A stretch of DNA of 64,000 bases. Source: an uncultured Planctomycetaceae bacterium. GTDB lineage: Bacteria; Planctomycetota; Planctomycetia; Planctomycetales; Planctomycetaceae. The notes under the pieces were generated by a model, which did no database searches, was not told the origin of the DNA, and worked only from the letters and a program-made list of their open reading frames with translations. The number at the start of each line of letters is the position of its first letter. The first letter of the stretch is position 1. Below, piece by piece: positions 42,763 through 47,989 of this stretch. A program made the translations under genes and the position numbers. The DNA lies in NCBI GenBank assembly GCA_963813715.1, contig CAWFAK010000012.1:399193-463192 (forward strand). The letters run 5' to 3'.

Positions 42763-43134
42763 TTACTGTGCGCTCGACATATCCGGCCGCAGCCGCTTGG
42801 CGTCTCGCAGGTAGACGTGCACCACTTCGCTTTGCGGCTTGTCGGTGTTGAGGTGGAGCAGAATGCGGATGCAGCGGCCCATGCTGCCCGGCACTGGAAT
42901 TTCGCAGGTGCACAACAGTGGAACCTGCTTCATCCCCAGGGTCCGCGCGGCCTCCGCCGGGAAGGCCGACGTCAGGTCGCTCGTGGTGGTGAAGATGGCC
43001 GAGGCGATGTCGTCGAACGTCCGAATGTCGTTGGCCCGCAGGATTTCGTTCAATAGCTCGGTCGTGGCCGACAGGACCTCAGCCGGCGTGTCGGCCGGCA
43101 CATTCGTCGCGCCTCGAATTCCCCTCACGGGCAT
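42763..43134 (-). CDS. aroH: Chorismate mutase, AroH class
   Basis: [31 protein letters not shown]. Confidence 0.93.
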
Positions 43135-43405
43135 GTCTCGTTCCGCAGCTCGCGTAAATCCGATTCGGACCGGTCGGACCGCCCAATGTACCAAGAGCGC
43201 AAGGTCTTCGCGAAGGCCGCCCTACGACCTATCCGCGAACAGCTCCAAGCTTTATCCATGCAAGTCGCGAGCCGTCAATTCTGACATCGGAATGACGACA
43301 GCAGTCGCAAATGCGCGACAACGGGCCCGGCCGTCCAATATCGGCCGGTTGGAGAAAACCCACAATTTCCTGGGGATTTCAATACTTCACCCGCGATGCT
43401 TCGCG

Positions 43406-43420
43406 CGGCATCGACCTTGC
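43406..43420 (+). promoter_or_regulatory. sigma54 promoter upstream of structured leader
   Basis: CGGCAT-CGACC-TTGC; predicts +1 near 43432. Confidence 0.6.
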
Positions 43421-43431
43421 GTAAGTAACAG

Positions 43432-43541
43432 CTCACCACGGTGGGGCAGGCACCTGTGAACCGGTGGTTTCTGCCGGCGGAAACGCCGGGGCCTTTCGTC
43501 CATGCGGAGGGGCAGGCGAGAGGTTCCCGGCGCTTTCTTTT
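43432..43541 (+). ncRNA. Candidate cis-regulatory leader/sRNA with terminator-antiterminator
   Basis: P1 ACCACGGT/ACCGGTGGT, CCGGCG-GAAA-CGCCGG hairpin, long stem 43484-43532 plus TTTCTTTT. Confidence 0.5.
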
Positions 43542-43607
43542 CACTTCACTTCAAGGACTCCTGCAAAGTCGCTTCCCACGACGGGCTCATCCTTCACCGG
43601 AGGAGTC

Positions 43608-44485
43608 ATGATCCCAGCCATCGGCTACTCGATGTGCGCGGCCGGCCGACGCCCGCTCAATTCGACCGCCAACCGAACCCCACTCGTCACCGCCTGGTCC
43701 CCCGAAGCCCAACCGACCGCCGTTGAAATCGACCTGGATTGCTCGAGCCGCAGCCTGGAAACGCTGTGCGACCTCGAGGGCGAAAGCGTCACGCTGCACG
43801 CCGTCTCCTTGTCGGACGACGCCCATAATCCGACCGACGCTGCCCTCTGCCGCCTGACCGACCTCGCGCGTTGCAGCGGCGCTCAGGCCGTCATCGCCCG
43901 CCTCGATTCCGCGCCGACTGCTTCAACGAGTACGACGGAAACGGTTGCCGCAGGGACCCGCGCCTCAGTTCCCGCGCCCGCGCCTGGAAGACCGAGACGG
44001 CCAACCTCTCCCAGCAAGTCGAATCGGTTCAGACGCGGCTGGGCGAAATTCCCTTCTACCTCGAGTCGACCGTCGAAGCCGAGTGGTTCAAACGCAACAG
44101 CCACGGCAAGCGCGTGCTGCGAAAAGTTCTGGCCGGCACCGGCTGCGGCTGGTTCGTGGATGTGACGGCCATCTACGTCGCCGCGATGAACTCGGCCCAG
44201 GACGCGGCCGACTTGATCGAAGAAGTGCTCCCCTCCGCCGACCGCGTGCAACTGCGGCTCACAGGCGTCTACTTCGACGAGCAAGCCGAACGCTGGATCG
44301 CCAGCGACGCGCATCCGATTCCCGAAGCGGTCTTCGAGCTCTACGCCTTCGTGCTGGAAGTCGCGCTCGAAAAGGTGGACGCCGTCTTCGTGCGGCAAGA
44401 ACCGGCCGACGCCATCCAGCTCAACTCCGAAGCCGAGATCCAGACCGTCCGCGAAATCGCCGAAGGCGTGAGCGCGATCGTGTGA
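43608..44485 (+). CDS. Divergent DUF692 (MNIO/UPF0276)-like protein (frameshift ~43915-43990)
   Basis: GGAGGAG RBS; LHAVSLS, VQTRLG..FYLE, TGCGWFVDVT, HPIPEAVFELY, KVDAVF. Confidence 0.7.
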
Positions 44486-44505: not shown

Positions 44506-47500
44506 TTAACGTTCGAATCGATCGGACGTGTAGGACAATGTCGTTTTCGTGGTCTCACCTTGTTTGATGTCGACGGTCAACTGCTTGTCCAAGAAGCCGG
44601 CCCGTTCGTGCCAGACCCGGAGGGAATATTTGCCCGCCGGAAGGTCCGCAATCTCGAAGGCGCCCGAGTCGTCCGTCACCGCCGCAAAGGGATGGTCGAC
44701 CACAAGCAGCACCGCCCGCATCCGCGGATGCAAGTCGTCCCTGATTTCGAATGGTATTCGTTCCGGCACGAAGTAGGCATCGAACTTTGCCTCCTGTCCG
44801 GGTGCCACCGCCTGATTGATCGTCGGGTTGCGTGACGGAAACAGATGGAAGTTTCCCGGCATCCGGCCGTCATTCCGCAGTGTCAGCGTTTGCCCCACGC
44901 GAGCGATGCCCGCACGCGGAGAAAAGGCCGCGCCATCGGTCCTGAGCAGGAAGGGCTGCTGCGGGACTGCCGCGGCTGTTCCGCTGGGAGCTTGAGGCAA
45001 GTACACAAAGACATCGGCAATTCTCGTCCCGGGAGTTTTTCCCGCCAGCCGCACGAGTCCAATGAAACGACCGACATCGGTTCGAGCCTTCTGCTCAGCG
45101 GTCGCTCCGGCAGTCCGAGTTTCGAGATGCCTGGCGACGGCGCGTGATTCGGTCTGCGTCCGTTTGTCGTTACTGCTCTTCGGCGGCAAACCTTTCGTGA
45201 CACGGAACTCGAGGTCGTATTCCGCCCCTTCGACGACCTTGATCTCGCGCACGACATGGCCAAAACCAGGTCGCACGTCGCCCACGACCCCGAACGGTCC
45301 AGTGCCAGAAACGTAGATCCAATTTGTCCCCGGAGGCAGACGCATCTCGAAGGTCCCGTCCTTCTTGACGTCCGTGCCCTGAATCGAGGCGCCGCTGCGG
45401 GGGCGCGACGGACCGTGCGCGCCGATTGACGCCGTCTCGTCGCCGGTCAGCATTGCGGGCTGGCCGGTGGCGTCATCGATGAGACGACCTTTGATCAGGC
45501 CGCCTTTAATCAGGCGAATCGGTGGTGCCTCGACTGTTTGACTTTGCCGGACCTCGAACGAATCGAGTGCCGCGAACGTCAAACCGGGCGGATTTTTCCG
45601 CAGATAGACGTTGAATTTCCCCGCGGGGAGCGACGTGAGGCGATAGCGTCCGCCCTGGTCAGTCTGGGCCGTCGTCCAGTAGCTATTCGCTTTCCGACTC
45701 TGCTTGTCGATCCCCTGCAACGCCAACGTGAGTCCCGGGGCCGGCCGGCCTGATTCCCCGTCGACGACCAGGCCGGTGATGACCGCGCCCTTTGCCAACT
45801 CAATGTCCATCCGGTCCGGAACCTGTGTGTACGGAATCGGCGTGCCTTCGTAGTCGGGATGCTGAATGACGAGGCCCGGTGGGTTGAGATGCGTGGCAAT
45901 CCGCATTTCGACGGGAACATTCGGCTCGACGAATTTGAACTCCGCCAGGTCATCGATCACGAAGACGCCCCGGGCGTCGGTCATCGAGCAGCGAATTCCC
46001 GGAATCGGCTTCTGCAAACAAAACTGATCGAACCACGGAAAGACGAGCGCTCCGGTGACGGGTTGGCCTTGCTGGTTCTTGACGACCCCTTTGAGGGTTG
46101 CCGCCTTCCCCAGCTTGATTTCGTCACAGTCGCGTCGCCGCCATACAGCCCGCAACTCTGTCGCGAGTCCCTTGGAGCGGAAGACGAGGGTGTAATATCC
46201 TTCCCCTGGTTTCCTCGGGAGCGAAACGTGACGAAAGACGAATTGCCCAGCATCGTTCGTCGTCATCCGCTCCATGAACCGCTGGCCGTCGCCAACGCCG
46301 ACTTGATACAAGTCGACTTGAACGCCTGAAATCGGCTTTTCTTCTCTGTCGAGGCACGTTCCGCCGAGGTCGTCCGGCCCGGGTCGGAGTTCCGCCGTCT
46401 TTGGCGGCTCGGTTGCGGCCGGTCGTGCATCGGTCCGCGTCGGCGCCGACTCGACGTTCGGCGGCCTCACGGAGACGCTTGCCGCGATCAGGCTGAGAAC
46501 GGCGAGGACCGCAACTACGGCGGCTCGAACGCGGCCGGAGCAGTGGAGAGTGATGGCATCGGCTTGATTGAGAATCGTCGAGATTCGCAGCGCGAAGCCT
46601 GACGGGCGCTCCCAGATTCCGACGGCGTTCGACACGACGATTCGCCGCACGCCGGCCAGGTCCCGCGCCCAGGCGACAAGTTGCGCGGCATAGTCGGCGG
46701 GTCCAATCAGCGAGGCCGCGGCCGCGTCGGCCAGGAATTCTTGATCCTGCCGGATGCGTCGGCGCAGCCACCAGTAAACCGGATGCGCCGAAAGGAGCGG
46801 GAACAGGCAGCGATCGAGAGCCAACAGCCACAAGTCGCCGTTGCAAATGTGGGCCCACTCGTGACCCAGCACGGCGCGCAACTCACCGCACGGCGAATTT
46901 TCGGCAAAGTGCGCCGGCAGCACGATCGTCGGCCGGAGCGCGCCTGTCGCCACCGGCGTCACGAGCCGGGCATTGAGCCGCAATCGAGGCAAGCGGGCTC
47001 CCTCGCCGACAATCGCCCGCAATTCGTCGACCAGTGTGGGAGGAGCCGTGAGACTTTTCCGGATCAATCGCGACGCCTGCCAGGCTCCAACCGCCAGGCG
47101 AGCCGCCATCAAGACGGCACCGGTGAGAAATAGAAGGACGGCGTCACCAACAATCGTTCCTGTATCAATTCCGGCACCGGGCGGATTCTCGACGGCGATT
47201 GCAGGCTGGGAAACAACGTCGGTCGGCGGCTCTGGATCCGCCTGGTGCGGCGGATCGATTTGCTGTTCGGGAGCGGGCTGCTCGGACGCGAACGGAATCG
47301 CGGAAACCGGCGGCTCAGGGGCTTGTCGTTCTGCTGCCTCGACTGGGACAGCCGGCCGTTCCTCGCGAGCGAAGAGTTGCGCGGATCGATGCGCGGACGC
47401 GACGCCAAGAGACAGAAGACGGCTGCCACCAGCAAGCTGACAAGCGTGCCCCAAGCGAGGGCCATCCGCCGCGCCGGCTGTTTGATCAAGCACAGGGCAG

Positions 47501-47582
47501 CGCCCGCCAGCACGAGGAGGATCGTCGCCGCCAGGTAAAAGTCGGCCAGCCACAGGGCGATTGCATCGAGCCAGGGCGTCAT
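44506..47582 (-). CDS. BlaR1/M56 peptidase with carboxypeptidase-regulatory-like extracellular repeats (frameshift ~47380)
   Basis: N-terminal TM, RPTIVLP, LGHEWAHI, HPVYWWL..QEFLAD; TD..G.F/Y repeats. Confidence 0.85.
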
Positions 47583-47989
47583 GTTTCGGGCCCTTTCTTG
47601 CGCGACGGTCGGGTTCGCTTGCGGGCCTCGGCGATCATCGCGTCGAGGCGGGCAAGCTCCGCTTCTTTGAGTCTGCGCGAACCGAGCACGTGGACCAGGT
47701 ATTCGTCGACGGCCCCGTCGAAGACTTTGTCGAGGAAGCCCCCCGCCAGTTTACGGACCGTCGGCTCGCGGCCGACCTTCGCGAAATAGGCGTAGGCCTT
47801 GCCGACGCGCTTGTGGCCCACCAGCCCCTTCTGCTCCATCACCTGCAACAGGCTCAAGACGGTCGTGTAGGCCAGGTCGTTCTCGGCCGCCGTCATCTCG
47901 CGCCACACATCGCGGACGGTCGCCTCGCGGCGCTGCCAGAGCACTTTGAGGGCCTCGAGCTCACGATCGGTGGGGACAAGATCGGCCAT
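47579..47989 (-). CDS. BlaI/MecI/CopY family repressor
   Basis: RELEALKVLW, LAYTTVLSLLQVMEQKGLV, FDGA. Confidence 0.93.
   Translation of the reverse strand: MADLVPTDRELEALKVLWQRREATVRDVWREMTAAENDLAYTTVLSLLQVMEQKGLVGHKRVGKAYAYFAKVGREPTVRKLAGGFLDKVFDGAVDEYLVHVLGSRRLKEAELARLDAMIAEARKRTRPSRKKGPET

What the first reader, a model, noticed from the sequence alone, without database searches (positions are those of the whole stretch)
43406..43607. sigma54-driven structured leader RNA with mutually exclusive terminator/antiterminator: candidate new riboswitch or sRNA
Seen: the promoter CGGCAT-CGACC-TTGC puts +1 near 43432, right where a stem begins (ACCACGGT pairing with ACCGGTGGT, enclosing GGGGCAGGCACCTGTGA). 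Next is a perfect GNRA hairpin CCGGCG-GAAA-CGCCGG (43474-43489). Its 3' strand is also the 5' base of a long hairpin (43484-43532) followed by TTTCTTTT, so the two cannot fully coexist. A strong GGAGGAG RBS and the DUF692-like gene follow ~65 nt later. I do not recognise it as a known riboswitch class. Inference: a ligand- or protein-dependent attenuator, or a ~110-nt sRNA with read-through.
Basis: partly seen in the sequence, partly recalled or inferred. Interest (0 to 1): 0.7.

Follow-up and report, generated by a model that had tools for sequence, protein, structure and literature searches.

The report
New planctomycete small RNA gene
One genus of soil bacteria (planctomycetes) carries a short RNA gene, matching no catalogued family, with its own enhancer-controlled promoter; half of the genus has no gene behind it to switch, so it most likely acts as a free regulatory RNA rather than as a riboswitch.

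Summary
The sequence features are real; the riboswitch reading is weak. Homologues occur in 10 of 12 genomes of one Planctomycetaceae genus (both misses at contig ends) and 14 metagenome contigs, divergent from aroH wherever that DNA is held. All 22 with upstream DNA keep a sigma54 box; 21 of 21 aligned keep an enhancer-like site 113-117 nt upstream. Length from +1 to the stem end is 94-101 nt. The 5' half varies. The 3' hairpin covaries and holds an invariant, Shine-Dalgarno-like GGAGGGGCAG segment. One sister clade has no DUF692/MNIO gene here, only a convergent gene, so there is nothing to regulate in cis. The GAAA 'antiterminator' is perfect in 3 of 13 MNIO-clade members, and opening the terminator base costs 8-14 kcal/mol. 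No Rfam match. Best reading (0.65): a stand-alone ~105-nt sigma54 sRNA, with leaky read-through into a conserved MNIO lacking most iron ligands in one clade. A regulated attenuator in that clade is not excluded (0.2). One candidate target (HEAT-repeat gene leaders) is suggestive only. The scan's look-ups showed no earlier finding of this.

The parts
42763..43134 (-). aroH, chorismate mutase; divergent neighbour and synteny anchor of the RNA gene
   Evidence: TIGR01796 E 8e-41, PF07736; next to the RNA in the homologues that reach that far
43282..43320 (+). Conserved upstream activator-like site: two imperfect palindromes of TGTC-N10/11-GACA type, 22 nt apart; inferred binding site of a sigma54 enhancer-binding protein
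   Evidence: GA(C/T)GACA in 21 of 21 aligned sequences, 113-117 nt before the -24 box, with variable DNA on both sides
43406..43420 (+). sigma54 -24/-12 promoter; predicted +1 about 43432
   Evidence: YGGCAY-N5-TTGC in 22 of 22 homologues with upstream DNA, spacer varies; genome encodes RpoN and more than 20 sigma54 activator domains
43432..43541 (+). The RNA, about 105-110 nt
   Evidence: +1 to stem end 94-101 nt in 22 of 22; single copy in the genome; transcriptome contigs of 2 of 4 runs begin at 43434-43446 (weak)
43437..43479 (+). 5' half, conserved only in the MNIO clade: hairpin 43437-43458 whose loop holds a second GGGCAGG, and hairpin 43460-43478; alternative pairings are possible
   Evidence: 98% of cells paired but no change on both sides; unalignable in the other clade
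43474..43489 (+). GAAA hairpin proposed as antiterminator; not a genus-wide feature
   Evidence: perfect in 3 of 13 MNIO-clade members; closing pair broken in 8 of 9 aligned, other five pairs kept in 9 of 9
43484..43541 (+). Conserved 3' domain: 15-bp stem with one bulge, a 2-bp apical stem with variable loop, then a U tract. The lower stem is the common planctomycete terminator type
   Evidence: 17 sequences: 99% of cells paired, 2 pairs change on both sides, 4 on one side; weak hits elsewhere are generic terminators
43506..43516 (+). Invariant, largely unpaired GGAGGGGCAGG segment, Shine-Dalgarno-like; inferred business end
   Evidence: invariant in 9 of 9 genome sequences found without this pattern; the metagenome set was selected on it
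43542..43607 (+). MNIO-clade 5' UTR behind the terminator: invariant CAAGGA (43552-57), GAYTCCTGC (43556-64), CCCACGACGGG and RBS GGAGGAG (43599); RBS predicted paired
   Evidence: alignment A4; folding of 13 sequences
43608..44485 (+). Orphan MNIO (DUF692) homologue lacking most iron-ligand motifs, under purifying selection; one-base gap near 43976 in this assembly
   Evidence: no precursor ORF found upstream and no same-strand partner gene downstream, unlike family relatives

Best explanation
A stand-alone small RNA gene. An enhancer-binding protein bound about 115 bp upstream activates sigma54 polymerase, which makes a ~105-110-nt RNA ending at an intrinsic terminator. The RNA acts in trans through the invariant G-rich, Shine-Dalgarno-like segment in the upper part of its terminal hairpin. 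Most likely it pairs with C-rich stretches in mRNA leaders (candidate: leaders of a genus-specific HEAT-repeat protein family, site at -29..-20, where binding would more plausibly hinder than help ribosome loading); less likely it is a decoy for a GGA-binding protein such as one of the ~11 CsrA paralogues. In one of two sister clades the U tract is interrupted and part of transcription runs on into a conserved, probably non-catalytic MNIO gene, so there the RNA doubles as a leaky leader. Shown: conservation of enhancer-like site, promoter, length, stem and loop; absence of a same-strand downstream gene in one clade. Inferred: transcription from this promoter, termination, action in trans, the target, the direction of regulation.
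For: Promoter 22 of 22 and length 94-101 nt; enhancer-like site 21 of 21; stem covariation on the + strand, including G-U changes that would be mismatches on the - strand; no MNIO gene and a convergent gene in the sister clade; RpoN and activators present; transcriptome contigs in 2 of 4 runs cover the RNA and nothing between it and aroH. Target hint: 6 of 16 HEAT-family leaders score in the top 1% and 9 of 16 in the top 5% of 400 leaders of this genome; that family was found in 12 of 12 genus genomes and 0 of 60 other genera at E 1e-25.
Against: No read-level 5' or 3' end. The contig ends at 43532 overlap the next contig by 30 nt and look like an assembly-graph junction; two other runs cover the promoter itself, so DNA may be present. 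Only 2 pairs change on both sides and kin are not independent. No enrichment of the loop's complement near starts, and seed hits are no better than shuffled seeds. The target was picked by the pattern; a control pattern also gave one distant orthologous pair; this genome's own two copies score 204/400 and 22/400. Opening the 10-mer costs 7-8 kcal/mol in the MNIO clade against 4-5 elsewhere. No Hfq found (genome 83% complete).
Confidence: 0.65

Rival explanations
1. In the MNIO clade the RNA is a regulated attenuator or riboswitch. A ligand, protein or partner RNA favours pairing of 43437-42 with 43460-66, which frees 43474-78 to pair with the terminator base and lets polymerase enter the MNIO gene; a second layer hides the RBS.
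For: The whole 200-nt leader is 91% identical in 9 sequences while synonymous divergence in the gene behind it is 0.15-1.8, mostly 0.6-1.2. Both alternative helices stay pairable in 9 of 9, some through wobble changes. The U tract is interrupted in this clade. Contigs bridge the terminator into the gene in 3 of 4 runs. The RBS is predicted paired.
Against: The same promoter, length and 3' domain persist in a clade with nothing to regulate. Energy gap 10-14 kcal/mol. No change on both sides in any 5' helix. Pairing of the terminator base with upstream sequence in the nascent RNA is matched by 5-126 of 150 shuffles in 16 sequences (7 of 150 here). No known aptamer.
Confidence: 0.2
2. Relic of a peptide operon. 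The ancestor had sigma54 promoter, precursor peptide, hairpin, MNIO. The precursor was deleted, the enzyme decayed or was lost, and the hairpin is kept mainly as a (bidirectional) terminator.
For: 21 of 27 family homologues of this MNIO have a Cys/Arg-rich precursor ORF just upstream, 6 of these 21 with a loose sigma54-like box; the lower stem is a generic terminator; the hairpin faces a convergent gene 56-182 nt away in the no-MNIO clade; post-precursor hairpins of two relatives resemble it weakly.
Against: A relic would not be expected to keep the enhancer-like site, promoter, transcript length and an invariant unpaired 10-mer in both clades. The resemblance (3 of 200 shuffles, among 54 tests) is not beyond multiple testing. 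As an account of origin it remains possible and is compatible with the best explanation.
Confidence: 0.1
3. The functional RNA is on the minus strand (a leader of aroH or the 3' end of the convergent gene), exposing a C-rich anti-Shine-Dalgarno loop and a GNRA hairpin.
For: The minus strand also folds (z -2.57 here) and would show CCCCUCC and, by eye, a GNRA hairpin in several members; aroH lies downstream on that strand.
Against: Promoter box and U tract face the + strand in 22 of 22; G-U/A-U/G-C interchanges in the stem fit the + strand; + strand folds are lower in energy in 4 of 4 pairs compared.
Confidence: 0.05

Closest known systems
GlmY / GlmZ sRNAs of Enterobacteriaceae (PMC3045617, passages read)
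   Same: Small RNA gene from a sigma54 promoter with TGTC-N10-GACA-type activator sites more than 100 bp upstream; stand-alone, acting in trans.
   Different: No sequence or Rfam match; shorter; two imperfect sites rather than three; activator unknown; no Hfq found in this genome; GlmZ frees an RBS (per the paper), whereas folding did not show RBS release for the candidate target here.
Other sigma54-driven sRNAs: Qrr of Vibrio (search listing of PMC10162802 only), CrcZ of Pseudomonas (recalled)
   Same: About 100-nt RNA with its own terminator under an enhancer-binding protein (Qrr length recalled).
   Different: No homology found; single copy; the conserved part is inside the terminal hairpin rather than upstream of it.
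CsrB/RsmY-type CsrA sponges (PMC13443453, passages: CsrA recognises GGA in hairpin loops and is common in Planctomycetota)
   Same: An invariant GGA at the 3' side of a small apical hairpin; the genome has about 11 CsrA homologues.
   Different: One GGA, not the many repeats typical of these RNAs (recalled); in most members it lacks the ANGGA context (consensus recalled).
Transcription-terminating riboswitches and attenuators
   Same: Structured RNA between a promoter and a gene, ending in a hairpin with U tract; alternative helices possible in one clade.
   Different: No conserved aptamer-like 5' domain across the genus; half the homologues have no downstream gene; no Rfam match; no paper found joining DUF692 and riboswitch (0 papers).
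MNIO (DUF692) RiPP clusters such as bufferin BufB or HvfB
   Same: The downstream protein belongs to PF05114; family relatives sit behind a Cys-rich precursor and before a conserved partner gene.
   Different: An intact homologue of this clade scores 56 bits against a cut-off of 310; ligand motifs lost; no precursor or partner at the locus.

Membership tests
Any Rfam family | Score at or above the family's gathering threshold | tested here: not met
   best 15.3 bits against 80; 8 loci, 4 chance hits, none reaching gathering
sigma54-dependent sRNA gene | Conserved -24/-12 box at the right distance from the RNA | tested here: met
   22 of 22
sigma54-dependent sRNA gene | Upstream activator sites about 80-150 bp away; RpoN and activators in the genome | tested here: met
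   21 of 21
sigma54-dependent sRNA gene | Conserved intrinsic terminator and no conserved ORF inside | tested here: met
   stem covariation; 5-9 T in the 11 nt after the stem; indels of 1-3 nt between members shift any reading frame
sigma54-dependent sRNA gene | Discrete transcript with mapped ends | tested here: inconclusive
   contigs only, depth 2-6; starts at 43434-43446 in 2 of 4 runs; the 43532 end is probably a graph junction
trans-acting base-pairing sRNA | Conserved complementary target | tested here: inconclusive
   for; against
riboswitch / attenuator | Consistently upstream of a same-strand gene of coherent function | tested here: not met
   10 of 23 homologues lack the MNIO gene; 8 of these face a convergent gene, 2 are cut short
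riboswitch / attenuator | Conserved, covarying alternative helix | tested here: inconclusive
   five pairs invariant in the MNIO clade only, none covarying; no excess over shuffles across clades
riboswitch / attenuator | Ligand-dependent folding or read-through | not testable with these tools
   needs in-line probing and transcription assays
CsrA-sequestering sRNA | Several GGA motifs in loops | tested here: not met
   one conserved GGA (alignment)
Active MNIO maturase (downstream gene) | Iron-ligand motifs and an adjacent precursor | tested here: not met
   SDH, EN, H-x-x-G and ERD motifs of 11 relatives and the genome's canonical MNIO are replaced in 9 of 9 clade sequences (their role as ligands is recalled); no RCCRCC-type precursor found in the genome

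The most novel reading that the evidence does not exclude
An Hfq-independent, enhancer-controlled RNA that works as a ribosome-binding-site mimic displayed from inside its own terminator, and that in one lineage became a two-state leader co-transcribed with a catalytically dead MNIO kept under selection after losing its peptide substrate, possibly as the RNA's protein partner. That would be a metalloenzyme scaffold and its operon RNA recycled into a regulatory module.
Probability: 0.1. Interest if true: 0.8.

Novelty: new member of a known kind. Interest (0 to 1): 0.5.

Why it matters
I found no paper describing a sigma54 sRNA in Planctomycetota (listings only). This phylum has large sigma54 regulons and CsrA (PMC12316311, PMC13443453), and no Hfq was found in this genome, so how it does RNA regulation is open. 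This gene gives a complete, testable unit: enhancer-like site, promoter, RNA, terminator, invariant segment and one candidate target. It also shows how a stand-alone sRNA can look like a riboswitch in a single genome. Its range is narrow (one uncultured genus), which limits the reach. Two by-products may interest RiPP specialists: a Cys/Arg-repeat precursor family in Planctomycetaceae and a conserved MNIO pseudo-enzyme.

Tried and rejected
Rfam, window and 8 homologous loci: nothing. Paralogues in the genome: none. Wider homologues: model R1 in 146 family genomes gave 3 strong hits, all in the genus, and 8 weak ones judged chance. Model R2 gave 14 weak hits in 150 family genomes and 5 in 150 phylum genomes (33 bits or less against 87-93); 0 of these 19 had the promoter or the G-rich segment. 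These searches score only 21-32 candidates per genome, so diverged relatives may be missed. Upstream of aroH in 27 genomes of other genera: no strict promoter match. Viral contigs: 24 pattern hits, none with the full hairpin by eye. GTDB pattern scan: 8 of 10 hits Planctomycetota, 2 chance. Metagenome scan: 58 of 72 loci dropped as chance. A conserved CGGC 'antiterminator' across clades: present in 16 of 16, but 24-91% of shuffles have it too and its place varies 6-37 nt. Homology to post-precursor hairpins: not significant. A regulon from the enhancer-like matrix: only this site scores well (65.7, next 14.2). Target by genome-wide seed pairing: no signal. RBS release (activation) of the HEAT leaders or of the MNIO leader: not shown. 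Earlier scan notes: one unrelated, otherwise none. A small ORF across the leader: open in some genomes but in different frames.

Full report
Observation. The region folds somewhat better than shuffles (z -2.5) and matches no Rfam family. It lies between a divergent chorismate mutase gene, aroH, and a DUF692/MNIO-like gene (PF05114). Records of the closest relatives are labelled uncultured Planctomycetaceae or Planctomycetota.

Homologues. The RNA is found in 10 of 12 genomes of the genus, this one included. In the two misses the contig ends in or just after aroH. A pattern scan of metagenomes gave 72 loci, of which 14 score 75-167 bits with a covariance model; the other hits in that call score at most 18. 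That set was selected on the G-rich segment and part of the stem, and several members are near-duplicates. Outside the genus nothing convincing was found in 146-150 family genomes or 150 phylum genomes, and the genome holds one copy.

What is conserved. (a) A sigma54 box in 22 of 22 members with upstream DNA, with a variable spacer. (b) An island 113-117 nt further upstream with two imperfect TGTC-N10/11-GACA palindromes in 21 of 21 aligned. This has the form and distance of the GlrR sites of glmY (PMC3045617, passages). The genome has RpoN and more than 20 activator domains. (c) Length: 94-101 nt from predicted +1 to the end of the stem. (d) A 15-bp terminal stem: 99% of cells paired in 17 sequences, 2 pairs changing on both sides and 4 on one side, slid controls at most 59%; this is modest evidence among kin. 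(e) An invariant GGAGGGGCAG segment, mostly unpaired, beside a variable apical loop. The 5' half is not conserved between subclades.

The decisive comparison. An aroH tree splits the genus into two sister clades (100/99 and 99/97). One has the MNIO gene 75-82 nt behind the stem (13 members examined). The other (10 members) does not: 8 show a convergent gene ending 56-182 nt away, DUF1501 in the one scanned, and 2 contigs are too short. Its 4 genomes, 67-96% complete, show no copy of this MNIO paralogue elsewhere. Enhancer-like site, promoter, length, stem and loop are the same in both clades. So the conserved unit does not need a downstream gene, which argues for a stand-alone RNA.

The proposed switch. 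The perfect GAAA hairpin is seen in 3 of 13 MNIO-clade members; in the rest its closing pair is broken. At equilibrium the terminator wins in 22 of 22, by 8-14 kcal/mol. In the nascent RNA the terminator base pairs upstream about as often as in shuffles. Against dismissing it: in the MNIO clade the whole leader is 91% identical while synonymous sites of the gene have diverged by up to 1.8; five pairs of the hairpin and two alternative 5' helices stay pairable in 9 of 9 without covariation; the U tract is interrupted; and the RBS is predicted hidden. Leaky read-through is likely there; regulated read-through is possible but unshown.

Expression. Four of 15 listed metatranscriptome runs were laid, all as contigs at depth 2-6. 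All four cover the RNA. Two (X6, X10) begin at 43434-43446 with no cover between there and aroH, which fits the predicted start. The other two run across the promoter and may include DNA. Three bridge the terminator into the gene. Two short contigs end at 43532, but the next overlaps them by 30 nt, so I read that as a graph junction, not a mapped 3' end. This is a weak hint only.

The downstream gene. Its one-base gap here is absent in close relatives. Family homologues are RiPP-type clusters: 21 of 27 have a 39-46-residue precursor ending in Cys/Arg repeats, with a conserved same-strand gene behind in the 4 where the script showed one. The clade's version has no precursor or partner and has replaced the usual His/Glu/Asn/Asp motifs, yet dN/dS is 0.03-0.48. 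It is best called a conserved pseudo-enzyme. Whether the RNA descends from such an operon or the gene was inserted behind an older RNA cannot be told from two sister clades.

How it may act. The invariant segment looks like a ribosome-binding site; a near-identical string precedes a start codon in this genome. Its exact 11-nt complement is not enriched. Among 30 loci fetched of 83 matches, one distant orthologous pair had it just before an RBS, in a HEAT-repeat protein family found in 12 of 12 genus genomes and 0 of 60 other genera. Of 16 leaders of that family, 6 rank in the top 1% and 9 in the top 5% of 400 leaders of this genome; two of the six are the discovery pair, and this genome's own copies are unremarkable. 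A control pattern also gave one distant orthologous pair among 30 loci. Folding shows no consistent RBS release. I put this target at about 0.25. A CsrA decoy role is the alternative: about 11 homologues but only one GGA. No Hfq was found.

Literature. Searches for Planctomycetes with small RNA and sigma54, with sRNA and chorismate mutase, with CsrA, with riboswitch candidates, and for DUF692 with riboswitch (0 papers) listed no description of this RNA; I saw listings and abstract starts only. Passages were read in PMC3045617, PMC12316311 (sigma54 regulon in Planctomycetia, 0 mentions of sRNA), PMC13443453 and PMC12452194 (0 mentions of planctomycetes or the RCCRCC repeat in the main text). 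Searches were listings. No supplements were read, and most subscription papers are not in the library.

Verdict. A real, conserved RNA gene that I could not match to any catalogued family, most likely a sigma54-controlled trans-acting sRNA (0.65), restricted to one genus. The riboswitch reading survives only as a clade-limited possibility (0.2). New member of a known kind; interest 0.5.

Noticed in passing
L030:880-1005, L031, L034-L039, L041-L049, L054-L056 and L032 (upstream of family MNIO homologues): A family of 39-46-residue precursor ORFs with a K/R-rich 'AVRELKxLRT' leader and a C-terminal RCCRCCRCC-type repeat, before an intact MNIO in 21 of 27 loci. No Pfam or NCBIfam match for the one scanned; not mentioned in the main text of PMC12452194. 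Candidate undescribed RiPP or metallophore class.
   Followed up: partly
L030, L031, L043, L045, L047, L048, L054 leaders: A small hairpin of GAGAYGGTCTC / GGGGTGGTCCC type recurs in the leaders of these precursor genes (seen by eye).
   Followed up: no
L040, L053: Further MNIO paralogues in other genera that lack a precursor and have lost several ligand motifs, so pseudo-enzymes may have arisen more than once.
   Followed up: partly
window 43608-44485, near 43976: One-base gap, probably an assembly error; genome G003 also shows a frameshift in this gene at another place.
   Followed up: yes
G000 C5 near 135.6 kb (+) and C9 near 610.6 kb (+): Two other intergenic sigma54 boxes have a TGTCGC-N8-GACA site upstream and may share the activator.
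   Followed up: no
window 44506-47989 (-): BlaI-like repressor (PF03965) followed by a BlaR1/M56 peptidase fused to carboxypeptidase-regulatory domains. It sits between the MNIO gene and the xylose isomerase-like gene, which follow each other more closely in relatives.
   Followed up: no
G002 C13 95410-95515 (L023): A duplicate of the last ~100 nt of the MNIO gene lies 2.2 kb downstream in the closest relative, suggesting an insertion with a flanking duplication.
   Followed up: no
L292-L320: Genus-restricted HEAT-repeat protein family with a signal-peptide-like start (by eye), often in tandem, with conserved C-rich leader elements.
   Followed up: partly
L121, L124, L127, L129-L132, L136, L138, L142, L144 (viral contigs): An unrelated perfect hairpin whose arms are GCGGAGGGGCAGG and its complement recurs in 11 of the 24 viral hits.
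   Followed up: no
G000 whole genome: About 11 CsrA homologues and no Hfq found.
   Followed up: no
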